Assembly: GCA_050731155.1 (NCBI GenBank)
Contig: JBOHOI010000053.1
Location: 1-14,270 of the forward strand
Length of the DNA: 14,270 bases
Direction: 5' to 3'
From: Nitrospiraceae bacterium
GTDB taxonomy: Bacteria; Nitrospirota; Nitrospiria; Nitrospirales; Nitrospiraceae
A program made the translations under genes and the position numbers. The notes beneath the pieces are model-generated. The model saw nothing but the letters and a program-made list of their open reading frames with translations. It did not search any database and was not told the origin of the DNA. Position 1 is the first letter of the stretch; every line of letters starts with the position of its first letter. Below are positions 1-10,350 of the stretch, in pieces.

Positions 1-742
1 CTATCAAATGGTCGGGCGCGGCATGCGGCTCGATGCGCCGACCGGAAAGCTCATGTTCCGCGTCTACGACTACACCGATGCCACGCGGCTCTTCGGTGAA
101 GAGTTCATCAGCAAGGCCACGCCGCCACGAAAGCGCAAGGAGGGACCAAGCCCAGAACCTCCGGAGCCGCTGGAACCCACCATTCAAGTTGAGGGGTTCG
201 ACGTCCGCGTTACCGACGCCGGGCGCTACATCGTGACGCAAGTGGACGGCAAAGCTATGCCCGTCACTGTAGAGGAATACAAGGCGCGTCTGGCAGCTAA
301 ACTCGTTGAGGAAGCCCCGACGCTGGAAAAATTCCGTGCTCGCTGGATCGCACCTGCTGAGCGTCGAGAACTCCTAGGAAACCTGCCGGACGCGGGTCGG
401 TCGCCGCTCCTGGTTCGTTCATTGGAAAACATGACCGATTACGACCTTTACGATGTGCTGGCCGAACTGGGCTACGGCCTGAATCCGCGCACCCGTCCTG
501 AGCGCGCCGACGCGTTCACGTACAAACATGCGGGTTGGTTGTCGAAATTACCACTACCTACCGCCACCACGCTCAAGGCCCTCGCCGCGCAATTTGCTCG
601 CGCCGGCACGGATGGATTGGAGAACCCACAGGTCTTTCAGACGCCCGAAGTCGTGCAGGCGGGTGGTCTGGCCGCGCTCAAAGCGCTCGGCAATCCTGCC
701 GACGTGCTGCGGGAGACTAAAGAAAGGATGTTCGCGGCGTGA
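1..742 (+). CDS. hsdR: Type I restriction enzyme R subunit (HsdR), C-terminal part; 5' end lies outside the window
   Basis: The frame is open from base 2 and reads ...YQMVGRGMRL, which is helicase motif VI (QxxGRxxR) of SF2/HsdR. It continues into a C-terminal region (…MTDYDLYDVLAELGYG…) reminiscent of the EcoEI/EcoAI-type HsdR C-terminal domain. It is followed in the same strand by hsdS and hsdM. The TGA stop at 740-742 overlaps the GTG start of the next ORF. Confidence 0.85.
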   Translation, partial: YQMVGRGMRLDAPTGKLMFRVYDYTDATRLFGEEFISKATPPRKRKEGPSPEPPEPLEPTIQVEGFDVRVTDAGRYIVTQVDGKAMPVTVEEYKARLAAKLVEEAPTLEKFRARWIAPAERRELLGNLPDAGRSPLLVRSLENMTDYDLYDVLAELGYGLNPRTRPERADAFTYKHAGWLSKLPLPTATTLKALAAQFARAGTDGLENPQVFQTPEVVQAGGLAALKALGNPADVLRETKERMFAA

Positions 743-1326
743 AGGAACAGGAGAGGTTTAAAGAACTCGATAATATAGTCCAAGAGCTTCGACATAATAT
801 TGAAGACCACCGATTTTATAAACTGTATTTCGCTCCTGATACTGATAAGTGGGACAAGTTCTGTGTTGCAATGGACACGCTGGAAGACACTGAGCTGGCT
901 TTGGCCCATTACTTCAACTATGGATTAGGCCGCAGTGATGAGGAGCGTTACCTCCGATTGTATGGAGTTCAGCAAGCCGTTTATCTACAACAAGACGCGA
1001 TTAGGGCTCTTGTTGAAGTCGTGCTTGAAAAGAAATTTGAGCCCTCTGCTGATTCTGCGTGGAGGGCAATCCGGGAAGTCCGCCGCCATATTGGTCACCC
1101 TATAGAAGTCAAGAAGGCCGGGTCGGTCCGAAGGACCTTCCTTACACGGGTCTACCTGGCTATGGGGCTTGTAGGGCTCATCACGAGGGACAGTAAAAAG
1201 GGGGAGAGCGAGCACTGGGGAGGGCAATTGGATGAGGTGTTGTTGGCTTATTTAGCTGAAGCCATTCCGATAGTTCGTGAGATCGGGGAAAGTGTCAAGA
1301 AAAGATGGCCTCTCCCTGAGGATTGA
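739..1326 (+). CDS. Hypothetical 195-aa protein embedded between hsdR and hsdS; candidate HEPN-like (R-x4-H) defence protein
   Basis: The ORF has a GTG start overlapping the hsdR stop (GTGA) and ends 1 nt before the hsdS ATG. It is markedly AT-richer than the flanking genes; a counted 60-nt sample at 761-820 was about 33% GC. It contains REVRRH/RRHIGH (R-x4-H) near residues 113-122. No recognisable enzymatic motif otherwise. Confidence 0.6.
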   Translation: MKEQERFKELDNIVQELRHNIEDHRFYKLYFAPDTDKWDKFCVAMDTLEDTELALAHYFNYGLGRSDEERYLRLYGVQQAVYLQQDAIRALVEVVLEKKFEPSADSAWRAIREVRRHIGHPIEVKKAGSVRRTFLTRVYLAMGLVGLITRDSKKGESEHWGGQLDEVLLAYLAEAIPIVREIGESVKKRWPLPED

Positions 1327-1327
1327 A

Positions 1328-2578
1328 ATGATTGCAAAAGCTTCAGGTGTAGAAACCCCACATTCGAAGCGTTCGTTGCCCGATGGCTGGCGGTGGGTGC
1401 GGCTGGGGGAGGTGTGCGAGGAACAGACTGGCACTCGTGATCCTCGTTCAGAGGCATTGAAACAGTTTCGCTATGTGGACATCACCAGTGTGGATAACCG
1501 CACGAAGCGGATGGTTGATCCCAAAACCTTAGTTGGCAGGGAGGCCCCAAGCCGGGCACGCCAAGTCATTAGGAAAAGCGACGTCCTCGTTTCGACAACA
1601 AGACCAAATCTGAACGCGGTCGCGCTGGTTCCATCTGGACTCGATGATGAAATTGCGAGCACTGGCTTCTGCGTCCTTCGGCCAAAAAGCGCCCTCAATC
1701 CCTCCTATTTATTCGGCTTTGTCCAAAGTGCGGAGTTTGTTCAATGTCTGTCGGACTTGGTCAAGGGTGCGTTGTATCCGGCGGTCACCGATAAGCAGGT
1801 TCGCGATCAATTCATACCCCTTCCACCGCTTGCCGAGCAGAAGCGCATTGCGGCGATCCTGAACGAGCAGATGGCGGTGGTGGACCGGGCGCGGGCCGCT
1901 GCCGAGGTGCAGTTGGAGGCGGCTAAGGCTCTCCCTGCCGCCTATCTTCGCGCCGTCTTCAACAGCCAAGAAGCCCGGCAGTGGCCGAGGAGAAGGCTAG
2001 GGGAGGTTTGCGAACTTTTGCCGTCCAAATCAATTGCAACAGACGGGGATGCAGAAGTCTTAGCCATCACGACAGCTTCTCTCACCGAAAGCGGGTTCGA
2101 GCCATCTGGTGTAAAACAGGCCAGAATGTGGGCCAATGATGTGACTGAGTGTGTGGTATCTCCTGGTGAAATCCTCATTGCTCGAAGTAACACACCAGAC
2201 CTCGTTGGGCGCGTCGCCATGTTTTCGGGAAATCCAAAGGAGGCGGTAGCTTCAGACCTAACAATTCGTCTTCGTGGGAATGGTGACAGAGTGAACTCGG
2301 CTTTTCTGACAGCCTATCTGTCGTTCCTCTACCTGACCGGTTATTGGAAGGAACGCGCGGGTGGAGCGAGTGGCTCCATGAAGAAAATCACGCGAACACA
2401 AATCCAAGAAGAGCGAGTTCCGGCTCCTCCTATCTCCGAGCAGGGGCGGATCGCGGCGGTCCTGAAGGAACAGATGGCGGTGGTGGAGCGGACACGTAAA
2501 GCGCTAGACGAACAACTCGACACGATCACCAAATTGCCCGCCACGCTCCTACGAATGGCATTCAACGGCGAGATCTGA
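1328..2578 (+). CDS. hsdS: Type I restriction-modification specificity subunit HsdS, with two target-recognition domains
   Basis: Two internal conserved HsdS repeats are present. The central one reads LPPLAEQKRIAAILNEQMAVVDRARAAAEVQLEAAKALPAAYLRAVFN and the distal one PAPPISEQGRIAAVLKEQMAVVERTRKALDEQLDTITKLPATLLRMAFNGEI; each follows a variable TRD. The ATG at 1328 is preceded by GAGGA. The track ORF begins at 1277, but that upstream part overlaps the preceding gene. Confidence 0.9.
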   Translation: MIAKASGVETPHSKRSLPDGWRWVRLGEVCEEQTGTRDPRSEALKQFRYVDITSVDNRTKRMVDPKTLVGREAPSRARQVIRKSDVLVSTTRPNLNAVALVPSGLDDEIASTGFCVLRPKSALNPSYLFGFVQSAEFVQCLSDLVKGALYPAVTDKQVRDQFIPLPPLAEQKRIAAILNEQMAVVDRARAAAEVQLEAAKALPAAYLRAVFNSQEARQWPRRRLGEVCELLPSKSIATDGDAEVLAITTASLTESGFEPSGVKQARMWANDVTECVVSPGEILIARSNTPDLVGRVAMFSGNPKEAVASDLTIRLRGNGDRVNSAFLTAYLSFLYLTGYWKERAGGASGSMKKITRTQIQEERVPAPPISEQGRIAAVLKEQMAVVERTRKALDEQLDTITKLPATLLRMAFNGEI

Positions 2579-2580
2579 AT

Positions 2581-3630
2581 ATGCCTCGTGGTCTCTCTGC
2601 CGAAGTCAGGACTCATCTTGAAAAGGCAATGGAATCAGCAATTCTCGCGGTCGAGGTTTATAACAAGCCAGCGACGAAGTTTCGTTCTGGTGGCTACATC
2701 GTGTTAATGACCATTGCGTGGACGGCTTTGTTTCATGCCATCTTTTTGAAACGTAGACAAAAACCTTACTACCGCAATGATCCGGATAACCCAAGGAGCC
2801 GCTACAAAAAGGTCGAAGGGGACTACAAAGCATGGGAGTTGGCAACTTGCTTAAAGAAATTCTATGGATCGAATAACCCACCTGAGCGCAAGAACTTGGA
2901 GTTCTTCGTTGGTCTTCGCAACAAAATCGAGCATCGTTCCATGCCTCAACTGGACCTCAAAATCTTTGGCGAATGTCAGGCCATGCTTTTCAATTTTGAG
3001 GATTGTCTCCTCAAGGAGTGTGGCCAGAAATACGGGCTGAATGAGAGCCTCACTATTGCCCTTCAGTTTTCCCGAATTCAGGATAGCGAGCAGGCGCGAG
3101 CAATTCGTGTGCTGCATCGTCCCCTCCATAAACACATCGAGTCGTACATTCAAACCTTCCGATCATCCTTGAGCAATGACATCGAGAGCGATCTTGCGTA
3201 TAGTTACAAGGTCTTCTTGATTCCTAAGCTGGCAGGTAATCAGGGGCAGGCAGATGTAGCGGTTGAGTTCGTTAAATTCGATCCGAGCACGCCCGACCAA
3301 ATGGAAACCTACGAGAAGATAGTCTCGCTAATAAAGCCAGCAGTGATCCAAGTCGCTAATCCAGGAAAACTTAAGGCCGGGGATGTTGCCAAAGCCGTCG
3401 CTGACGCGACCGGAAGGAAATTTACTGCAAGTAGTCATCACTCCCGTGCGTGGCGGTTCTACCGCATACGACCGCCCAATGGCGATCCCAGGCCTGAAGT
3501 AACTCAGACACAGTATTGTCAATGGGATGAAGCGCATCGGGACTATGTTTACACAGACGCTTGGAAGAAGTTCCTCATGTCTGAAATGAAAGACCCTACA
3601 AAGTACGAACACATAATGCATTCGACATAG
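2581..3630 (+). CDS. HEPN-like protein (DUF3644-like N-terminal domain with LRNKIEH motif) plus an uncharacterised ~200-aa C-terminal domain, embedded between hsdS and hsdM
   Basis: The ATG lies 2 nt after the hsdS stop. The N-terminus (AMESAILAVEVYNKPATKFRSGGYIVLMTIAWTALFHAIFLK …NLEFFVGLRNKIEHRS) matches my memory of the DUF3644 pattern (A.E.YNKP … L.ELRDN.IH). The RNKIEH stretch is a canonical HEPN R-x4-H RNase motif. AT-richer than the hsd genes; a counted 60-nt sample at 2701-2760 was about 42% GC. Confidence 0.7.
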   Translation: MPRGLSAEVRTHLEKAMESAILAVEVYNKPATKFRSGGYIVLMTIAWTALFHAIFLKRRQKPYYRNDPDNPRSRYKKVEGDYKAWELATCLKKFYGSNNPPERKNLEFFVGLRNKIEHRSMPQLDLKIFGECQAMLFNFEDCLLKECGQKYGLNESLTIALQFSRIQDSEQARAIRVLHRPLHKHIESYIQTFRSSLSNDIESDLAYSYKVFLIPKLAGNQGQADVAVEFVKFDPSTPDQMETYEKIVSLIKPAVIQVANPGKLKAGDVAKAVADATGRKFTASSHHSRAWRFYRIRPPNGDPRPEVTQTQYCQWDEAHRDYVYTDAWKKFLMSEMKDPTKYEHIMHST

Positions 3631-3674: not shown

Positions 3675-5216
3675 ATGATGCCACGACCCCGCAAGGATGA
3701 AAACGCCAACGGTAGGCGCCTTGCGACCCAGCGATCCGTCAACGGCGCGATCAAGAGCATCTGCGACATCATGCGCAGGTCTAATTGCGCCGGCGCGCTG
3801 CAATATGTCCCTGAACTGACCTGGATTCTCTTCTTGCGTATCCTCGATGAGCGGGAGACTCGTGAGGCGGAGGAAGCCGAAGCAGTGGGCGCAGACTACG
3901 CACCGTCGCTGACCAAGCCGTATCGCTGGCAGGACTGGGCTGCGCCCAACGGGCCGAAGCGGAAGGAATTACAAGATGGGTCAATGGGGGCGTTCTTTGG
4001 CTTCGTCAACAGCGACTTGATCCCTCGCTTAAAGAAACTCCGTGAACAGCCCAACGCCACTTCGCGCCAAAAGGTCATCAGCGAAATCTTCTCCGGCATT
4101 GAGAAGACCCGCATCGATACCGAGCGCAATTTCCTGGATGTGTTGGATAAGGTCCACGAGATCAGCGCCGAGACCGTAGACCCCACGCATGTCTTCACTC
4201 TTTCGCAGGTGTACGAGGGGCTACTTCTCAAGATGGGCGAGAAGGGCAACGACGGGGGCCAGTTCTTTACCCCCCGCGAGATCATCCGGGCGATGGTAAA
4301 GGTGATCGACCCTAAGATCGGAGAGACGGTCTACGATCCGGGGTGTGGGACGGGGGGCTTCCTAGCACAGTCTTATGAATACATGCGCGACCGTTTGGGT
4401 GACAAGGCGACTGCTCCAGAGATTGAAACCCTTAAGCAACGAACCTTCTACGGACGCGAGAAGGATAATGCCGTCTACCCCATCGGCTTGGCCAACTTGG
4501 TCCTACACGATATTGATGAGCCACACATCTGGCACGGCAACACCTTGACCGGTGCGGAGACATACGGCGGTCTCTTCACCGGTGCCCCTGCCCTCTACGA
4601 CGTGGTGTTGATGAATCCGCCCTTCGGGGGCAAGGAAGGAAAGGATGCCCAGACACGGTTTGCCTACAAGACCGGCGCAACCCAGGTCTTGTTCCTTCAG
4701 CACGTCATCGACAGCCTCAAGCCCGGCGGGCGCTGCGGGATTGTGCAGGATGAAGGGGTGCTCTTCCGCACGAACGAGACGGCTTTCGTGCAAACCAAGC
4801 GCAAGTTGCTAGATGATTGCGACCTCCGGTGCATCGTCAGTCTTCCGGGTGGCGTCTTCACGGCGGCAGGGGCGGGTGTGAAGACGAACCTGCTCTTTTT
4901 CACGAAAGGGCGGCCCACGGAGAAGATTTGGTACTACGACCTGTCTGACATCAAGGTCGGTAAGAAGACTCCATTCACGCTAGATAAATTCGAGGAGTTC
5001 TTCCGTCTGCTCCCGACCCGTGCCGACAGCGAGCGAAGCTGGACCGTCACGCGGAAAGCGATCGAGGAGAAGAACTACGACCTCAAAGCAGTCAATCCGA
5101 ACGCCAAGAGCACTGAAGATACCCGCACCCCCGAAGAACTCTTGGATCTGATCGAAGCCAAAGGCCGCGAAGTCGCCGAAGCGCTCGCCACGCTCCGCGC
5201 CACCAGCAAGAAATAA
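3675..5216 (+). CDS. hsdM: Type I restriction-modification N6-adenine DNA methyltransferase subunit HsdM
   Basis: HsdM N-terminal domain signature (ALQYVPELTWILFLRILD). FFTPREI motif. SAM-binding motif I DPGCGTGGFL. Catalytic motif IV NPPFGG. GGAGA RBS at 3666-3670. The start could be the ATG at 3675 or 3678. Confidence 0.92.
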   Translation: MMPRPRKDENANGRRLATQRSVNGAIKSICDIMRRSNCAGALQYVPELTWILFLRILDERETREAEEAEAVGADYAPSLTKPYRWQDWAAPNGPKRKELQDGSMGAFFGFVNSDLIPRLKKLREQPNATSRQKVISEIFSGIEKTRIDTERNFLDVLDKVHEISAETVDPTHVFTLSQVYEGLLLKMGEKGNDGGQFFTPREIIRAMVKVIDPKIGETVYDPGCGTGGFLAQSYEYMRDRLGDKATAPEIETLKQRTFYGREKDNAVYPIGLANLVLHDIDEPHIWHGNTLTGAETYGGLFTGAPALYDVVLMNPPFGGKEGKDAQTRFAYKTGATQVLFLQHVIDSLKPGGRCGIVQDEGVLFRTNETAFVQTKRKLLDDCDLRCIVSLPGGVFTAAGAGVKTNLLFFTKGRPTEKIWYYDLSDIKVGKKTPFTLDKFEEFFRLLPTRADSERSWTVTRKAIEEKNYDLKAVNPNAKSTEDTRTPEELLDLIEAKGREVAEALATLRATSKK

Positions 5217-5272: not shown

Positions 5273-5311
5273 GCCGTATGGCAGCCCCCTCTGAGGGGGC
5301 TGCCATACGGC
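5273..5311 (+). terminator. 17-bp perfect GC-rich hairpin (gccgtatggcagccccc / tctga / gggggctgccatacggc) followed by a T-rich tract; probable intrinsic terminator of the hsd operon, or an operator palindrome
   Basis: Perfect inverted repeat read directly, with a 5-nt loop, 57 nt after the hsdM stop, followed by tcgttcacttatttctcttgttc. It overlaps the 5' extension of track ORF 5278, so the real start of the next gene is downstream. Confidence 0.45.
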
Positions 5312-5334
5312 TCGTTCACTTATTTCTCTTGTTC

Positions 5335-6456
5335 ATGATTCGTGAACATGGTACATTGGCGAACGCTATGAGAGGAATTGGACAGGAACCCCAGATAGTC
5401 GACTCCGCGCTGGAGCGATTGAAGAGCATTCATCCAGTCAAGGTAGTAAACCTACGCCGAGAGGTACATGTGGGAGATCGGCGTTGGGATGGCGAGGTGA
5501 CACTGAAGACTGATCGCGGCACGTTCCGTTACCTCTTTGAGGTCAAGACCAACTTGCGGCCACAGACCATACGACATCTGCTGATTCAGGCAGACGCGTA
5601 TCGCAAACAATGGGGTAAGGCTACAGGGCTTTTGCTGCTGGCCGATTACGTCAATCCCTCTTTAGGAGATCAGCTCAAAGACGCCGGCATCAATTTCATC
5701 GACACGGCAGGGAACTTGTTCTTGAAGCGGGAGCCGGGGCTGTATCTCTACGTCGAAGGGAAGAAGTCACCCGCCTCCACGAAGGAAAAGCCGACGCGGC
5801 TCTTTCAGCCAAGCGGCCTGACGTTGCTTTTCGGCTTGCTTGTTGAGCCTGAGTCCATCAACCACCCTTACAGGCATCTGTCGGAGGCAAACGGCATTGC
5901 CCTAGGAACAGTTGGTTGGGTCAAACGAGATTTACGAGAACATGGCTACCTGGAGCCCACCGGGAAGGATAGTTTTCGCCTAGTTCGTAAGAAGGACCTC
6001 TTAGATCGCTGGGTGCATGGGTACGCGAGCCGCCTCCGCCCTAAAGTTTTCCTCGGCGAGTATCGTGCCCTGTCGAATGATCTTGATACTGTCGTCAAAT
6101 CGTTCAAACAGTATGCCCTAGAACACGGCATGTCGTGGGGGGTATCAGGAGGGCTCGGTGCTGATGAGCTTGTACACCATTACCGAGGAAACACCGTCAC
6201 ACTCTTCGTCGAATCTTGGAGACACAATGAAGCTCTGAAAGAGCTGAAATGGTTGCCCGTCACAGGAGGCCCCATAACAGCCCTTAAAGGCTTTTCTCCT
6301 CGTGTCTTTCAGATGAGGGGGAAACAGGCCCGCTATCCGGTCGTGCACCCTCTCCTCATTTATGCGGAATTGCTCTATCAGGGGAGCGACCGTGCACTCG
6401 AAACGGCCCGCTTAATCTACAACGAGTTCCTGGAACCCTCCCTTGCCAAAGATTGA
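5335..6456 (+). CDS. Three-module protein: N-terminal PD-(D/E)xK-like domain, central winged helix-turn-helix (AbiEi/COG5340-like), C-terminal domain; probable regulator/antitoxin partner of the downstream nucleotidyltransferase
   Basis: The N-terminal ~150 aa carries …RRWDGEVTLKTDRGTFRYLFEVKTNL…, a D … ExK nuclease-fold pattern. The central region (LSEANGIALGTVGWVKRDLREHGYLEPTGKDSFRLVRKKDLLDRWV) looks like a wHTH. The stop overlaps the next ORF by 14 nt. The start is taken at ATG 5335, after the hairpin; ATG 5368 is an alternative. Confidence 0.55.
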   Translation: MIREHGTLANAMRGIGQEPQIVDSALERLKSIHPVKVVNLRREVHVGDRRWDGEVTLKTDRGTFRYLFEVKTNLRPQTIRHLLIQADAYRKQWGKATGLLLLADYVNPSLGDQLKDAGINFIDTAGNLFLKREPGLYLYVEGKKSPASTKEKPTRLFQPSGLTLLFGLLVEPESINHPYRHLSEANGIALGTVGWVKRDLREHGYLEPTGKDSFRLVRKKDLLDRWVHGYASRLRPKVFLGEYRALSNDLDTVVKSFKQYALEHGMSWGVSGGLGADELVHHYRGNTVTLFVESWRHNEALKELKWLPVTGGPITALKGFSPRVFQMRGKQARYPVVHPLLIYAELLYQGSDRALETARLIYNEFLEPSLAKD

Positions 6457-7240
6457 AGGCGATCTGGCAGAGGCACTGAAACTGCTCCGCAACTATTTCG
6501 AGCGGAGAGAAATATCTTTTGCACTTGTAGGCGCCCTTGTGCCAGCCCTTTTGCTTTCATCCGAAGTCGGAGCCCGAGAGACACGCGATGCGGACCATGT
6601 GATCAAGCTGGCTTCATGGGCAGAGTGGGATGCTGTGATCGCCGAACTCGTCGAATTAGGATTCAGGCGAGGGCGAGGGGAGCAAGAGCACCGATTGTAT
6701 TACAAAACTGGTGAGATTGACTTGATTCCTTATGGAGTCACAAACGGACCTGATGAAGTTCTGATTTGGCGTAAATCCGGGAACCAAATGAACATGACCG
6801 GATTCTCTGACGTATTCCGATATGCCAAACCGACGGAGGTTACGCATGGACTGACTCTTCCTGTTGTGCCGCTCTGGCTCTTTGCCGTCCTTAAGATAAT
6901 CGCCTATCTCGATCGTGAATCCCCGCGAGACCTTTCCGACCTCATCTATGTGCTGGAGCGTTATGAAACATCGGGAGAAGAGTCTCGCCGCTTTGAGGTC
7001 GCAAGTGGCGTTGATGGTGTGACGTATGAAACCTCGGGGGCGTATCTCCTGGGATGCGATGTTCGAGAAAATGCCTCAGATAAGGCCTTGGAATTGATCA
7101 AAGGATTTGTCGCTCCCATCACGGACGAGCATCACAAAGCGATCAATACAATTCTCCGAGAGGAAAACCTCCTGCAGTCTGAGGATCGAAGGCAGTCTGT
7201 GTATCGTTTAATCCAAGCCTTTCGAAAAGGATTAGCCTGA
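6443..7240 (+). CDS. Nucleotidyltransferase-fold protein (AbiEii / minimal NTase-like), probable toxin/effector of a type IV TA-like or Abi pair
   Basis: The N-terminal stretch FALVGALVPALLLSSEVGARETRDADHV fits the pol-beta NTase pattern hG[GS]-x9-13-DxD. Size, position immediately after a wHTH gene, and the overlapping start (TTG at 6443) are typical of AbiEi/AbiEii-like operons. Confidence 0.55.
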   Translation: MPKIEGDLAEALKLLRNYFERREISFALVGALVPALLLSSEVGARETRDADHVIKLASWAEWDAVIAELVELGFRRGRGEQEHRLYYKTGEIDLIPYGVTNGPDEVLIWRKSGNQMNMTGFSDVFRYAKPTEVTHGLTLPVVPLWLFAVLKIIAYLDRESPRDLSDLIYVLERYETSGEESRRFEVASGVDGVTYETSGAYLLGCDVRENASDKALELIKGFVAPITDEHHKAINTILREENLLQSEDRRQSVYRLIQAFRKGLA

Positions 7241-7320
7241 ATGCGAACAAGAAGGGACATGCTACTTTTTCCAGAAGCTTCCACACACATAAGCCGCTGG
7301 CTGGATGCCCTCTTCGAATC

Positions 7321-7345
7321 CCTCCTCCCCCGCGCCGTCCGCGCC
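7321..7345 (+). repeat. Copy 1 of intergenic motif R1 (CCTCCTCCCCCGCGCCGTCCGCGCC)
   Basis: Pyrimidine tract plus a GC mini-palindrome, read directly. A partial second copy (ctcctccccgcggc) lies at 7366-7379. Confidence 0.6.
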
Positions 7346-7514
7346 TCACCCTTGACTCCTCCCCGCGGCTGGCCTCGCCGGTTTTTTCCTCCGGTCCTTC
7401 ACGCGCGGTGTTCACGCCCCTGCGCAGGGCCGGGCAGCTCGCGGCCCAAAAGCCGCCTTCACGCCCCCAACATCTCTGGACACGCTGCTCAGCCAGGAGT
7501 CGGCCAGAAGCATC

Positions 7515-7543
7515 TTGACAAGAACCGAGGAAAGAGCTACTAA
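7515..7543 (+). promoter_or_regulatory. Candidate sigma70-type promoter upstream of the SWIB gene (TTGACA, 17-nt spacer, TACTAA)
   Basis: Perfect -35 hexamer TTGACA at 7515-7520. The -10 hexamer TACTAA matches the TATAAT consensus only 3 of 6, after a 17-nt spacer. Lies about 150 nt upstream of ATG 7691. Confidence 0.25.
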
Positions 7544-7690
7544 CAGGCACTTGTTGGGGCTCCTTGAGGGCGTGAGGGCCGCCCACGCCACAAGGCACGT
7601 CCTAGCACCTCACCGTAGTTATCGTTCACACACAGCAGCGAGACGCCGCAAAACAATGTAGCCTCACGCTGCGAACCTTGAGGAGGGAAA

Positions 7691-7948
7691 ATGGCAAGAA
7701 AAATGAACAACACATTCATGAAACCTGTAAACCCGTCTCGTGATTTGGCAGAAGTGGTGGGAAGCAAAGCTCTTCCGCGAACAGAGGTGACCAAAAAGCT
7801 TTGGGCGTACATCAAAAGGCATAAGCTCCAGGATTCCAAAAACAGACGCAACATCAACGCTGACGACACATTGAGGAAAGTATTTGGCGGCAAGAGAACG
7901 GTCAATATGTTTGAGATGACCAAGCTCGTCAGCAAGCACCTGAAATAA
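7691..7948 (+). CDS. SWIB/MDM2-domain protein (85 aa)
   Basis: Sequence …LAEVVGSKALPRTEVTKKLWAYIKRHKLQDSKNRRNINADDTLRKVFGGKRTVNMFEMTKLVSKHL is a textbook bacterial SWIB-domain sequence. AGGAGGG RBS directly upstream. Confidence 0.85.
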   Translation: MARKMNNTFMKPVNPSRDLAEVVGSKALPRTEVTKKLWAYIKRHKLQDSKNRRNINADDTLRKVFGGKRTVNMFEMTKLVSKHLK

Positions 7949-7989
7949 CCAGAACATTCCCCCTCGTTCGGCGCCTCAGTCAGAACGTT

Positions 7990-8008
7990 CGGGGCCCACG
8001 GGCCCCGT
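7990..8008. terminator. Short perfect GC hairpin (cggggccc acg gggccccg) 42 nt downstream of the SWIB gene; possible terminator
   Basis: 8-bp stem with a 3-nt loop, read directly. There is no clear U-tract on either strand. Confidence 0.3.
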
Positions 8009-8125
8009 GCTGTCTTGCCGAGGCGCCGTGTCATGTCCAGGCGGGACCACCAGGCCGCTGAACGATACCGTGGTGCCACGCGATCATCGGCCGATTCCAT
8101 CCCGAGCCACGATGATGGGACTCGC

Positions 8126-8141
8126 CCTCCTCCCCCGCGCC
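8126..8141 (+). repeat. Copy 2 of R1 (CCTCCTCCCCCGCGCC)
   Basis: Identical 16-mer core in the convergent intergenic space between the SWIB gene and the - strand gene. Confidence 0.6.
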
Positions 8142-8224
8142 CTCAAAAGTGAGTTACGAACAAGCCTGGCAGGGGAACCCCGCCGCTTGATGCTCTCTGG
8201 ACGCGAGGCTTGCGAAGCATCCTC

Positions 8225-8659
8225 TCAGTCGCCTCCTTTGAACGCATCCCGGTCGTATTCCTCGCCGACGTCATCATGTTCCTGGATTCCCAGAGCGCTG
8301 AGGAACGACACTCGCAAGGCTCGGACTTGCGTGAGGCTCCGGCGGTCAGCTTTTTCCGCTCCGGCCAGAAACCGGTCGCAGAGTTTCAGGCCTTGCTGAA
8401 AGTGTTCGGCGATCGGGTCTTCGGCGGCTTGCTGCCAGGTACTATAAATGAGGAATTCCTGGAAGGCGCGGGCGGTAGGGTAGTGCTCGCCGAGCGTCAG
8501 GAGCTGGCGGTACGCCTGCGCGGCTTCGTCCCCGGCGCTCGCAGAGAAGGCGGCCTCCCATTCGGCAGCCGATGCACCATCAGCGCCCAGCTCGTTGCGC
8601 GTCTGCGAGAGCTGGAATGCGGTGTGGGCGGCGACGGCTGGGTCGAACGAGAGATCCAT
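8225..8659 (-). CDS. Hypothetical protein (~144 aa from ATG 8659; a GTG at 8746 would give 173 aa)
   Basis: In the - strand frame, third-codon positions are strongly G/C-biased (GCC, GTC, CAC, ACC …), which in a high-GC genome is the signature of a real gene. AAGGGAG lies upstream of ATG 8659. The overlapping + strand ORF 8210..8824 lacks this bias. Confidence 0.55.
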   Translation of the reverse strand: MDLSFDPAVAAHTAFQLSQTRNELGADGASAAEWEAAFSASAGDEAAQAYRQLLTLGEHYPTARAFQEFLIYSTWQQAAEDPIAEHFQQGLKLCDRFLAGAEKADRRSLTQVRALRVSFLSALGIQEHDDVGEEYDRDAFKGGD

Positions 8660-8972
8660 TATCCCGTCTTTTACTCCCTTCCGCACACTTTCCGCAATTC
8701 CGTCTTCGCGCGTTGGAGTAGGCGCTTGTCTTTGGCACTGAGCCACCTGCGCTTAACAGACAAGTCTGGGTTCCCGCTCTTGACACCTCCCTTTGGACAG
8801 CCTAGCTTTGCTTCTGCTGACTGATTCCTCAGACCATCCATTGGTTCCTCTTCAAGATCTGGAGCGGATGGCCCTGTTGTCGGAGCGGAAGGAGCCGCGG
8901 GAGGTTCAGCGGGAGGGACTGGAGAGGAAAGGGCTGCTGCCAAAGGACAAACGCTTTCGTCATGAGTGAGCT

Positions 8973-9362
8973 GTGCCTCCACTCGATCTGACGTGCCCAT
9001 CTTGTGGGACCGAACGGACCCAACGCCTGAATCTCCTGCGGCGGTTTTATGGTGACGGTGGTTTTGTTGGGCACGCGTTTCTCTCCGAAGGGCTTGAACG
9101 CCCTCACCAGCCGTGGGGATTTACGGCTGGCTTTCTTGTCGGGCTTCTCCTCGGTGCCATCTCGTATGTGATCCTTCCCGAGGCGTACCAGCTCTTCTCA
9201 GTACTGCCCCTGGTCCTGGGTTGGCTGGGCGTTGGGGTCAGGGCTCGGATGAAATACCATGACAAGCGGGCGAAGTGGGAGAGCGCCCTCGACCAGTACT
9301 TCATGTGCCTGCGATGTGGGGACGTCTTTCGCCCCCGCAAACAAAGGCCCGACGTTCCATGA
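8973..9362 (+). CDS. Small zinc-ribbon membrane protein (CPSCG … CLRCG flanking two hydrophobic helices)
   Basis: GTG start. Two CxxC pairs at the N- and C-termini bracket hydrophobic segments (FTAGFLVGLLLGAISYVIL, LFSVLPLVLGWLGVGV). Confidence 0.45.
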   Translation: MPPLDLTCPSCGTERTQRLNLLRRFYGDGGFVGHAFLSEGLERPHQPWGFTAGFLVGLLLGAISYVILPEAYQLFSVLPLVLGWLGVGVRARMKYHDKRAKWESALDQYFMCLRCGDVFRPRKQRPDVP

Positions 9363-9387
9363 CTCAGAAGCTCTCCTCATCGCGTAA

Positions 9388-9540
9388 GAAGAAAAGGCGG
9401 GGTCAGGTCTGGCCATCACGCACCGGCTTGCCCGCGACAAAGCCAGCCTCGACATCTTCTGGTTCAAGGACGAGTCCCTCAAAGAGTCCGACAATCTCCA
9501 CGGCGCGCTGGAACAGTTTGAGGCGATCCAAGCAGATTGA
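9388..9540 (+). pseudogene. hsdM: Remnant of the C-terminal ~50 codons of a second, different-family type I hsdM gene
   Basis: A 51-codon open frame reads …ITHRLARDKASLDIFWFKDESLKESDNLHGALEQFEAIQAD*. The (A/R)xKxxLDIFWLKDESL…DNL…ALEQF pattern is, from memory, the conserved extreme C-terminus of EcoKI-type HsdM proteins. The intact hsdM at 3675-5216 ends quite differently. No upstream hsdM body is present. Confidence 0.45.
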
Positions 9541-9581
9541 GCCGACACGTACATGCTGAACGCTGATGGAGATCCTCTTCG

Positions 9582-10028
9582 ATGAATCTTCGCGCCGCCC
9601 TGATCTTCCTCGTCCTCGGATTCATCGGCCTGTTGATCGTGATGGGGACGGCCAGTTTCGTTCGGTGGCTGAAGATTTCCTACCCTCGGTCCTTCCGCTC
9701 GATTCTAGTTGTGCTCTGCCTCTTGATGGTGGGTGCCGGGGTCTGGGTCTACATGGAAGCGAAGGAGCGACCAGTGTTCCACGCGGGCGATCTCGTCACG
9801 CTCGAGGAGCCGGTGGTTGCCAGAGTCATCCCTGCAGGTCGCAGCGCGCCCGCGACAAGCTGTATTGTGGAGATTTACGAGCATCTCTCGGTGGTGGACG
9901 TTCAAACCGGAACCATGACGGCGCGCGTCGAGAGCAACAATCGATCCGGTCCGAGCTACTGTCCAATCGGCGCTGACGTGCACATCGAGCTGGCCTGGCT
10001 TCACCGCTATACTCTCACGCACCGGTAG
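9582..10028 (+). CDS. Hypothetical membrane protein (two predicted TM helices at the N-terminus)
   Basis: ATG with a GGAGA RBS 9 nt upstream. Strong GC3 bias (CTT CGC GCC GCC CTG ATC TTC CTC GTC CTC …). Hydrophobic stretches LIFLVLGFIGLLIVMG and ILVVLCLLMVGAGVWVY. Confidence 0.6.
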   Translation: MNLRAALIFLVLGFIGLLIVMGTASFVRWLKISYPRSFRSILVVLCLLMVGAGVWVYMEAKERPVFHAGDLVTLEEPVVARVIPAGRSAPATSCIVEIYEHLSVVDVQTGTMTARVESNNRSGPSYCPIGADVHIELAWLHRYTLTHR

Positions 10029-10031
10029 TCC

Positions 10032-10058
10032 TGACCCCGATCCATCGCGACAACCCGA
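10032..10058 (+). repeat. Repeat R3, copy A (TGACCCCGATCCATCGCGACAACCCGA)
   Basis: A 27-nt segment that recurs at 12105-12132 with 2 mismatches. Same orientation. Confidence 0.55.
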
Positions 10059-10121
10059 CGACGCCCTTCCGGCCGCTGGACCACTCGCTTGACCGCCGTC
10101 GGTAAACGAGCCCTTTCGCTC

Positions 10122-10145
10122 CCTCGTCCCCCGCGCCTCCCGCAG
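10122..10145 (+). repeat. Copy 3 of R1 (CCTCGTCCCCCGCGCCTCCCGCAG)
   Basis: One mismatch in the core. Lies 89 nt downstream of repeat R3 and about 200 nt upstream of the SPFH gene. Confidence 0.55.
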
Positions 10146-10350
10146 AGCATTCTGACTGGACGGAAAAGCGTTGCCGTGCCAGGAGGCGGCGGTCGCCGGT
10201 CACCAGATCATTCGCGTCCGCGCCGTCTTCACCGCTCACACTCCGCTAGACATCGCGTGCTGTCTCGTGTAACGTTCTCCCGGCATTTCTCTCATCGCTT
10301 GTCTGCTCCATTGCCTTCACCCCCAGGTCGCCCGGGATAAGGAGGTCACC

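What the first reader, a model, noticed from the sequence alone, without database searches (positions are those of the whole stretch)
739..1326. 195-aa ORF wedged between hsdR and hsdS, translationally coupled at both ends, with an R-x4-H pair (REVRRH/RRHIGH)
The GTG start overlaps the hsdR stop, and its own stop sits one nucleotide before the hsdS ATG, so it is almost certainly expressed as part of the operon. It has no similarity I can recognise, but it contains an R-x4-H motif in a predicted helical region (WRAIREVRRHIGHPIE). HEPN proteins such as DUF4145 and Apea-type are recurrently found fused to or beside type I hsd genes. It could be a second RNase module, or an adaptor for ORF-Y.
Basis: inference. 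Interest (0 to 1): 0.6.

Follow-up and report, generated by a model that had tools for sequence, protein, structure and literature searches.

The report
Unclassified HEPN-like gene inside restriction operon
The 195-codon gene between hsdR and hsdS is real and belongs to a large, unnamed, widely scattered bacterial protein family whose conserved R-N-x3-G-H-P motif looks like the active site of HEPN RNases, so it is most likely a stand-alone suicide/defence nuclease riding in a restriction-modification operon, which is a familiar theme rather than a new principle.

Summary
ORF 739-1326 (+) starts with a GTG that overlaps the hsdR stop (GTGA). It ends one base before the hsdS ATG, and nothing promoter- or terminator-like lies between the genes. 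It is a real gene: a profile search found 1,741 clusters at 50% identity, 1,001 of them at E<=1e-10. No Pfam, NCBIfam, PADLOC or PHROG model matches it, and no solved structure is related.

The family motif is R-x2-R-N-x3-G-H-P. ORF195 is an outlier, with x4 spacing and R instead of N.

A confident AlphaFold model (pLDDT 96) is an up-down helical bundle. The motif sits at the end of a helix, as in HEPN domains, and is followed by a four-strand beta insert. The only recurrent database signal is a sub-threshold match to HEPN_AbiU2, lying over the motif.

Fold searches were non-specific, and a profile comparison with the neighbouring DUF3644 HEPN gene was negative. HEPN membership is therefore likely but unproven.

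The family has no conserved partner gene. It lies beside hsd genes in only 3 of 52 other loci with enough downstream flank to judge. It is not a dedicated adaptor for ORF-Y.

Verdict: a new HEPN-like family and a plausible defence candidate, of moderate interest.

The parts
739..1326 (+). ORF195, the finding. It is a 195-aa member of a large unclassified family. The predicted structure is a helical bundle (H2-21, H24-31, H35-61, H67-96, H107-119, H164-189) with a four-strand beta insert (residues 124-163).
739..742 (+). GTGA: the ORF195 start codon overlaps the hsdR stop codon, a translational-coupling junction. AGGA at 725-728 is a possible Shine-Dalgarno sequence.
   Evidence: The same 4-nt overlap (ATGA) occurs in L005.
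1072..1101 (+). Codons R112-P121 (R-E-V-R-R-H-I-G-H-P), the family's signature R-x2-R-N-x3-G-H-P and putative HEPN-type catalytic motif. R115 = 1081-1083 and H120 = 1096-1098.
874..996 (+). Codons D46-D86, which carry the other near-invariant polar residues (D46, D50, Y71, Y75-G76, Q79, Q84-Q85-D86). They lie on the two long helices that precede the motif helix and are a candidate for the rest of the active site.
1324..1330 (+). TGA-A-ATG junction: the ORF195 stop, one base, then the hsdS start. GAGGA at 1318-1322 serves as the hsdS ribosome-binding site inside the 3' end of ORF195.
8..742 (+). 3' part of hsdR (type I restriction subunit, EcoEI_R_C domain). The gene runs off the left end of the window.
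1328..2578 (+). hsdS (type I specificity subunit).
2581..3630 (+). It is a recognised HEPN family with motif RNKIEH and a second embedded gene.
3675..5216 (+). hsdM (type I methyltransferase).

Best explanation
ORF195 is a translated, horizontally acquired cargo gene inserted between hsdR and hsdS of a type I restriction-modification operon. It is co-transcribed and translationally coupled with them.

It belongs to a large, previously unclassified, stand-alone protein family. I read that family as a divergent HEPN-type, metal-independent endoribonuclease. The R115...H120 motif at the end of a helix would supply the catalytic arginine and histidine. Conserved acidic and polar residues on the two preceding long helices (D46, D50, Y71, Y75, Q79, Q84-Q85-D86) would complete the site. 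By analogy with other HEPN enzymes, the protein would probably act as a dimer.

The likely role is a second-line abortive-infection or defence effector, like the other HEPN genes that nest in R-M operons. Its control is probably intrinsic, perhaps through the beta insert or, in long forms, the C-terminal helical extension. It probably does not depend on the Hsd proteins, because most relatives live without them.

Shown here: the gene, its junctions, the family, the conserved motif, the predicted architecture and the variable contexts.

Inferred: HEPN homology, RNase activity, dimerisation and the defence role.
For: Gene and coupling.

Foreign composition: ORF195 has GC 0.49 and GC3 0.51. hsdR has 0.615 and 0.68, and hsdM has 0.58 and 0.74.

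Family size and conservation:
- 1,741 hits at E<=1e-3 and 1,001 at E<=1e-10 among 50%-identity representatives.
- R112, R115, G119, H120, P121, D46, D50, Y71, G76, Q79, Q84, Q85 and D86 are each conserved in at least 90% of members.
- R-x5-H spacing in 213 of 222, N after the R in 192 of 222, and G before the H in 201 of 222.

HEPN criteria from Anantharaman et al. [quoted passage not shown] Csx1 has a beta-hairpin directly after the motif.

The AF2 model (pLDDT 96.4, pTM 0.90) puts R112/R115 in H107-119 and H120 at the helix end. A beta insert follows, then a last long helix.

HEPN_AbiU2 is the only Pfam family matched by more than one member: 6 of 137, best E 0.0099. Three matches with known coordinates all cover the motif and are co-linear with the 193-position profile.

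UniRef names one member (Actinobacillus equuli, P0223) 'HEPN domain-containing protein'.

Defence or mobile context recurs:
- Three further hsd associations (L005, L028 as an in-frame HsdS fusion, L048), of which at least two (L028, L048) arose independently of the window's insertion.
- GmrSD, DUF4145, an AAA_15/21 ATPase, a PIN toxin-antitoxin pair with an integrase island, and SIR2 with IS elements on a plasmid.

There is no conserved partner gene.

HEPN genes embedded in R-M operons are established, and one DUF3644 protein has been validated as a defence.
Against: - No statistically significant link to any HEPN family. The AbiU2 scores with known bit values are 11-13 bits against a cut-off of 26.8.
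- hhalign against DUF3644 gave 0.6% probability.
- Foldseek against the PDB found nothing below E 0.25.
- The family has many more invariant polar residues than typical HEPN domains. That could mean a different chemistry.
- ORF195 itself departs from its family: R instead of N after the arginine, and x4 instead of x5 spacing. It could be weakened or altered.
- Many relatives sit among housekeeping genes with no defence neighbours.
- No PADLOC model matches.
- Nothing here measures expression, RNase activity or phage resistance.
Confidence: 0.5

Rival explanations
1. The family is a new, non-HEPN enzyme or ligand-binding domain. The R/H motif resembles HEPN only superficially. The true active site would be built from the many other invariant residues (D46, D50, Y71, Y75, Q79, QQD, R137), and the chemistry and cellular role are unknown.
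For: - No significant profile or fold match to any HEPN.
- An unusually rich set of invariant polar residues.
- A four-strand beta insert that no compared structure covers; at most 149 of 195 residues align.
- Frequent housekeeping neighbourhoods.
Against: - The motif has all the specific HEPN details: N after the R, a small residue before the H, x5 spacing and a helix-end position.
- The only recurring Pfam signal is a HEPN family, and it lies exactly over the motif.
Confidence: 0.25
2. ORF195 is mainly a selfish addiction-type toxin or cargo gene. It rides in the hsd operon for linkage and co-transfer and gives no phage-defence benefit.
For: - Foreign GC content.
- Patchy distribution over many phyla.
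- Copies next to IS elements, integrases and toxin-antitoxin genes.
- It diverges faster than its operon: 51.5% identity for X against 82% for HsdR between the window and L005.
Against: - No conserved antitoxin-like partner gene, so an unrestrained toxin would be lethal.
- It is rare on plasmids (2 of 72,556 records) and absent from the phage collection.
- Published tests of genes embedded in defence systems mostly found defence functions.
Confidence: 0.15
3. ORF195 is a dedicated accessory of this operon: an adaptor or regulator that binds the Hsd complex or the neighbouring DUF3644 protein.
For: - Tight translational coupling to hsdR and hsdS.
- The same position is kept in L005.
- In L048 it again lies directly upstream of hsdS and overlaps it.
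- One in-frame HsdS fusion exists.
Against: - Only 3 of 52 other loci with enough downstream flank have hsd genes.
- L005 and L048 lack a DUF3644 gene.
- No conserved neighbour of any kind.
- Near-invariant catalytic-looking residues are not expected of a mere adaptor.
Confidence: 0.07
4. The ORF is a chance open frame and is not translated.
For: It has a GTG start and no database annotation beyond 'hypothetical protein'.
Against: - More than 1,000 significant homologues conserved along the full length.
- A pLDDT-96 structure prediction.
- Residue R18, near the N-terminus, is conserved, which supports the GTG start.
Confidence: 0.01

Closest known systems
HEPN_AbiU2 (Pfam PF18734; the AbiU2 abortive-infection protein family of the HEPN superfamily, Anantharaman et al. 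2013)
   Same: - A single-domain protein of about 190 residues, with the R-N-...-H motif at about two thirds of its length.
- It is the only Pfam family that several members touch, and the matches are co-linear over the motif.
- AbiU2 genes are also reported in R-M operons.
   Different: - Scores with known values are 11-13 bits against a gathering cut-off of 26.8.
- No member carries a precomputed PF18734 annotation.
- I could not obtain AbiU2 sequences for a profile-profile test.
DUF3644 / EC042_2821-type HEPN proteins (PADLOC PDC-S19; HEC-08 of Payne et al. 2024)
   Same: - An N-terminal helical domain of about 180 aa with an RN..H motif.
- Embedded in R-M operons; here it sits in the very same operon.
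- HEC-08 defence needs the motif histidine.
   Different: - No detectable sequence relationship: hhalign 0.6%, and no cross-hits by HMM.
- Different conserved residues.
- DUF3644 proteins carry a C-terminal domain that ORF195 lacks.
PrrC / EcoprrI (anticodon nuclease embedded in hsdMSR and guarded by the R-M complex)
   Same: - A HEPN-type nuclease gene nested between type I hsd genes and co-expressed with them.
- It offers a model for a 'backup' that fires when restriction is inhibited.
   Different: - PrrC has an N-terminal ABC-ATPase domain and is found almost only inside type I systems.
- ORF195 has no ATPase domain.
- Its family is mostly outside R-M loci.
HEPN toxins of HEPN-MNT toxin-antitoxin pairs (e.g. 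SO_3166, PDB 5yep; 7ae2; 8xdj)
   Same: - A small all-alpha bundle with an Rx4H motif.
   Different: - No adjacent MNT nucleotidyltransferase antitoxin and no conserved partner at all.
- ORF195 has an extra N-terminal helix and a four-strand beta insert.
- The structural similarity is no better than to unrelated helical bundles.
Csx1-type HEPN domains
   Same: [quoted passage not shown]
   Different: - No CARF domain and no CRISPR context.
- No sequence or fold match was found.

Membership tests
HEPN superfamily | A conserved Rx4-6H motif. | tested here: met
   R115 is present in 153 of 155 representatives and H120 in 152 of 154. Spacing is x5 in 213 of 222 members and x4 in ORF195.
HEPN superfamily | A polar residue (N, D or H) immediately after the conserved R. 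| tested here: met
   For the family: N in 192 of 222, H in 10 and D in 4. ORF195 itself has R116 at this position, so the feature is met by the family but not by this member.
HEPN superfamily | The motif lies at the C-terminal end of core helix 3 and the start of the loop to helix 4. The histidine is solvent-exposed. | tested here: met
   In the AF2 model (pLDDT 96.4), helix 107-119 carries R112, R115 and G119, and H120 is the first non-helical residue. Solvent exposure could not be checked because no coordinates were available.
HEPN superfamily | A four-helix up-down bundle that resembles solved HEPN domains more than other bundles. | tested here: inconclusive
- Foldseek against the PDB found nothing at E<0.25.
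HEPN superfamily | A significant profile or profile-profile match to an established HEPN family. | tested here: not met
   - HEPN_AbiU2 matches have E 0.0099-0.25, below the cut-off.
- hhalign against DUF3644 gave 0.6% probability.
- A PDB profile search found no HEPN.
- Only two HEPN families could be tested; HHpred against all HEPN profiles was not available.
HEPN superfamily | A conserved acidic residue in helix 2, near the motif (typically E-x3-[KR]). | tested here: inconclusive
   - D86 (145 of 157) lies in the long helix 67-96.
- E69-x3-R73 in the same helix is only about 50% conserved.
- Proximity to the motif in 3D could not be measured.
HEPN superfamily | Metal-independent RNase activity that depends on the R and the H. 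| not testable with these tools
   This needs biochemistry.
HEPN_AbiU2 (PF18734) | A score at or above Pfam's gathering threshold (26.8 bits). | tested here: not met
   ORF195 has no hit. The short-form consensus scores 11.2 bits, P0152 12.6 bits and P0223 11.3 bits.
DUF3644 (PF12358) / PDC-S19 | A match to the family profile. | tested here: not met
   No Pfam or PADLOC hit. hhalign gave 0.6% probability.
PrrC/RloC-type R-M-guarded anticodon nucleases | An N-terminal ABC-ATPase domain fused to the HEPN nuclease, with near-exclusive embedding in type I R-M systems. | tested here: not met
   There is no ATPase domain. Only 3 of 52 other loci with enough downstream flank carry hsd genes.
HEPN-MNT type II/VII toxin-antitoxin | An adjacent minimal nucleotidyltransferase antitoxin gene. 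| tested here: not met
   An all-against-all comparison of neighbours found no conserved partner. The AbiEii-like nucleotidyltransferase at 6443-7240 is paired with its own AbiEi.
Genes embedded in type I R-M operons ('guilt by embedding', Payne et al. 2024) | Located between hsd genes, on the same strand, and not a mobility gene. | tested here: met
   The pattern recurs in L005 and L048, and as an HsdS fusion in L028.

The most novel reading that the evidence does not exclude
The family is not a HEPN relative at all. It would be a new catalytic fold: a helical bundle plus a beta-meander, with an R/H/D/Q/Y site. It would work as a self-contained sensor-effector. In hsd-embedded copies such as ORF195, it would dock on HsdR/HsdS (hence the coupling at both ends and the HsdS fusion) and monitor the integrity of the restriction complex, firing when a phage anti-restriction protein disables it. 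That would be a PrrC-like guard built from an unrelated and much smaller protein.
Probability: 0.12. Interest if true: 0.7.

Novelty: new variant of a known kind. Interest (0 to 1): 0.42.

Why it matters
HEPN-type nucleases nested in restriction-modification operons are a known layer of bacterial immunity, so the principle is not new. This family, however, is large: at least 1,700 clusters at 50% identity, spread across many phyla. It is absent from Pfam, NCBIfam, PADLOC and PHROGs and has no solved relative. It also has an unusually rich invariant residue set and a beta insert after the motif.

If it is confirmed as an RNase defence gene, it would:
- add a sizeable family to defence-system catalogues;
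- provide a single-gene effector under 200 aa with no partner gene, whose activation signal would then have to be found;
- give a natural case of two unrelated HEPN-like genes in one type I operon, for testing layered defence.

Tried and rejected
- **Family libraries.** Direct scans of ORF195 against Pfam, NCBIfam, PADLOC, PHROGs and PDB sequences found nothing significant.
- **Is it a diverged DUF3644 domain?** I suspected this because many relatives are 310-330 aa, like PDC-S19 proteins. I rejected it: those long forms have no DUF3644 or PADLOC hit, and hhalign is negative.
- **Profile search of the PDB.** It returned only TPR and coiled-coil noise.
- **Conserved partner gene (antitoxin, SIR2, etc.).** None was found.
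- **Phage and plasmid carriage.** 0 phage records and 2 plasmid records matched.
- **AbiU2 alignments from the HEPN paper's supplement.** These are not held, so no AbiU2 profile-profile test could be run.
- **Genome scan with the broad alignment A3.** It failed for lack of a conserved stretch, so I used the narrower alignment A4.
- **RNA genes.** Rfam and tRNA scans of the window found nothing.

Full report
**1. The observation**

The window comes from a Nitrospiraceae metagenome-assembled genome, according to the source's name for the identical protein P0001. It carries these genes on the + strand:
- the 3' part of hsdR (8-742, EcoEI_R_C / type I REase);
- ORF195 (739-1326);
- hsdS (1328-2578);
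- a DUF3644 / PDC-S19 gene (2581-3630);
- hsdM (3675-5216);
- an AbiEi/AbiEii-like pair (5278-6456 and 6443-7240).

The GTG of ORF195 (739-741) overlaps the hsdR stop codon as GTGA. AGGA lies 10 nt upstream of it. The ORF's TGA (1324-1326) is followed by one base and then the hsdS ATG. GAGGA lies 5 nt upstream of that ATG. A consensus scan finds no promoter-like or terminator-like site on the + strand between positions 1 and 2700. The anatomical description is therefore correct, and co-expression with the operon is the natural reading.

**2. It is a real gene of a large family**

A word-indexed search found only nine relatives, at 42-100% identity. A profile of those nine, scored against 1.84 billion cluster representatives, found 1,741 proteins at E<=1e-3 and 1,001 at E<=1e-10.

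There are two size classes:
- about 175-200 aa, like ORF195;
- about 300-335 aa, with the same domain at the N-terminus followed by a helical extension.

Over 157 representatives the conserved positions are R18, D46, D50, A54, Y71, L72, Y75, G76, Q79, Q84, Q85, D86, R112, R115, N116, G119, H120, P121 and R137. The conserved R18 near the N-terminus supports the GTG start.

No family member matches any Pfam, NCBIfam, PADLOC or PHROG model at significance. No PDB sequence is related.

**3. The R-x4-H question**

An R-x4-6-H match in this arginine-rich protein is not meaningful on its own. Shuffled versions carry 1.5 matches on average.

RRHIGH (R115...H120) is nearly invariant. The family signature is R-x2-R-N-x3-G-H-P:
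- x5 spacing in 213 of 222 members;
- N after the arginine in 192 of 222;
- G before the histidine in 201 of 222.

ORF195 and its 87%-identical relative P0002 are outliers.

**4. Is it HEPN?**

Anantharaman et al. 2013 define the HEPN signature as follows:
- an Rx4-6H motif;
- usually N, D or H after the R;
- an acidic residue in helix 2;
- in Csx1, a beta-hairpin directly after the motif.

With 137 sequences, AlphaFold2 gave a confident model (pLDDT 96.4, pTM 0.90). Its elements are helices 2-21, 24-31, 35-61, 67-96 and 107-119, then four strands (124-163), then helix 164-189. R112, R115 and G119 lie in helix 107-119, and H120 is the first residue after it. D86 lies in the preceding long helix. 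This fits the HEPN description, with helices 35-61, 67-96, 107-119 and 164-189 as the core, an extra N-terminal helix and a beta insert after the motif. That mapping is my inference.

Database support is weak but specific. HEPN_AbiU2 is the only Pfam family matched by more than one of 137 members: six of them, best E 0.0099. Three matches with known coordinates cover the motif and are co-linear with the 193-position profile:
- short-form consensus residues 89-126 to profile positions 107-143;
- P0152 residues 79-111 to positions 100-133;
- P0223 residues 59-115 to positions 68-141.

UniRef calls P0223 a 'HEPN domain-containing protein'.

Against this:
- the scores are far below the Pfam cut-off;
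- hhalign against an alignment of the neighbouring DUF3644 HEPN family gives 0.6% probability;
- Foldseek finds nothing in the PDB;

I therefore treat HEPN membership as likely but not established. The mechanism 'works like a HEPN RNase' is my best-supported guess.

**5. Context and mode of life**

I examined 98 distinct loci other than the window. They come from many lineages: Terriglobia, Deltaproteobacteria, Dehalococcoidales, Babeliales, Peregrinibacteria, Chloroflexia, Flavobacterium, Paracoccaceae, Burkholderiaceae, Actinobacillus, and a Marinobacter and an Acinetobacter plasmid.

No neighbouring gene is conserved across loci. Neighbours fall into two groups:
- Housekeeping: succinate dehydrogenase, IleRS and trigger factor, xanthine dehydrogenase, an aminotransferase.
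- Defence or mobile: GmrSD, DUF4145 with DUF6602, an AAA_15/21 ATPase, a PIN toxin-antitoxin pair within an integrase/Rep island, SIR2 with IS elements, and an IS630-type transposase next to a truncated copy.

Type I genes flank the family in 3 of the 52 other loci that have at least 1.2 kb downstream:
- **L005.** The same hsdR-X-hsdS arrangement with an ATGA overlap. HsdR is 82% identical to the window's, but X is only 51.5% identical.
- **L048.** The order is hsdM, a 360-aa gene, X, hsdS, and the 3' end of X overlaps the hsdS start.
- **L028.** A C-terminal HsdS fragment is fused in frame to a long-form X in a decayed type I locus.

Embedding upstream of hsdS is thus recurrent but is the minority habit. 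ORF195 and the DUF3644 gene are both compositionally foreign to the operon, with GC 0.49 and 0.48 against 0.58-0.62. In L005 the slot after hsdS holds a different, unknown 273-aa gene. This argues that the hsd operon is a landing pad for interchangeable cargo, as Payne et al. 2024 describe. It also argues that ORF195 is neither an obligate partner of the Hsd proteins nor of ORF-Y.

**6. How it probably works**

Shown: the gene is co-transcribed with hsdR and hsdS and translationally coupled to both. It belongs to a solitary, fast-evolving, horizontally mobile family with an enzyme-like set of invariant residues.

Inferred:
- It is a metal-independent endoribonuclease of the HEPN type.
- It probably acts as a dimer.
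- It is kept silent by an intrinsic mechanism, because there is no antitoxin.
- It is switched on during infection to stop translation, backing up restriction in the way PrrC and DUF3644/HEC-08 do.

The atypical R116 and shortened spacer in ORF195 leave open that this particular copy has altered activity.

**7. Novelty and score**

HEPN-like genes inside R-M operons are well known. What is new is the family itself, which is large, unannotated and structurally distinct. I rate it 'new variant of a known kind', with interest about 0.4. Confidence is about 0.5 in the full HEPN-RNase defence explanation and more than 0.95 that it is a real, expressed family member.

Noticed in passing
window 2581-3630 (+): A second embedded gene sits between hsdS and hsdM. 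It is a DUF3644 / PADLOC PDC-S19 protein (E 1e-133) with a classic RNKIEH motif, a family already classed as HEPN. More than 1,100 close homologues exist. Its GC content (0.48) is as foreign to the operon as ORF195's.
   Followed up: partly
window 5278-7240 (+): An AbiEi_2-like gene (392 aa) and an AbiEii-like nucleotidyltransferase (265 aa) overlap by 14 nt, directly downstream of hsdM. A terminator-like hairpin lies at 7367-7383. The locus therefore stacks type I R-M, two HEPN-like genes and AbiE.
   Followed up: partly
window 7300-10350: About 3 kb downstream of the defence cluster has only short or low-confidence ORFs on both strands. It has no Rfam or tRNA match. I did not analyse it further.
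   Followed up: no
L005:2746-3567 (+): In the sister operon, the slot after hsdS is occupied by an unrelated 273-aa protein with no Pfam or PHROG hit, in place of DUF3644. It overlaps the hsdS stop by 4 nt. It is another unknown embedded candidate.
   Followed up: partly
L003:229-1236 (+) and L025 (Marinobacter plasmid pMAQU01) 2118-3086: In L003 a family member follows a 335-aa protein with a weak SIR2_2 match (E 0.0097), with a 4-nt overlap. On pMAQU01 an annotated SIR2 family gene lies about 3 kb upstream of a long-form member. This may be an occasional SIR2 pairing.
   Followed up: no
L048:2836-3918 (+): In a third type I locus the order is hsdM, a 360-aa gene, X, hsdS. From memory, the 360-aa protein's N-terminus looks RhuM-like.
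   Followed up: no
P0014, P0159, P0226 (proteins; P0226 = L028:2423-3514): Three fusions of the domain were seen:
- a 706-aa membrane protein with a transglutaminase core, carrying the domain at its C-terminus;
- a 382-aa protein with an unknown N-terminal extension of about 185 aa;
- an HsdS C-terminal half fused to a long form.
   Followed up: partly
L027:1510-1941: The closest relative (P0002, 87% identical) lacks its first 44 codons. It sits 83 bp from an IS630-type (DDE_3) transposase gene on a short contig. It is likely a disrupted copy.
   Followed up: no
L018 vs L019: A contig attributed to a Pseudanabaena metagenome-assembled genome is 92-100% identical at the protein level, gene for gene, to Flavobacterium aurantiibacter TH167. 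This probably reflects bin contamination in the metagenome-assembled genome.
   Followed up: no
long-form family members (e.g. P0057 residues ~190-314): The roughly 130-aa C-terminal helical extension of the long forms weakly matches phrog_36524 of unknown function (E 7.6e-5 with the consensus sequence). It also attracts coiled-coil noise in PDB searches. Its role is unknown.
   Followed up: no
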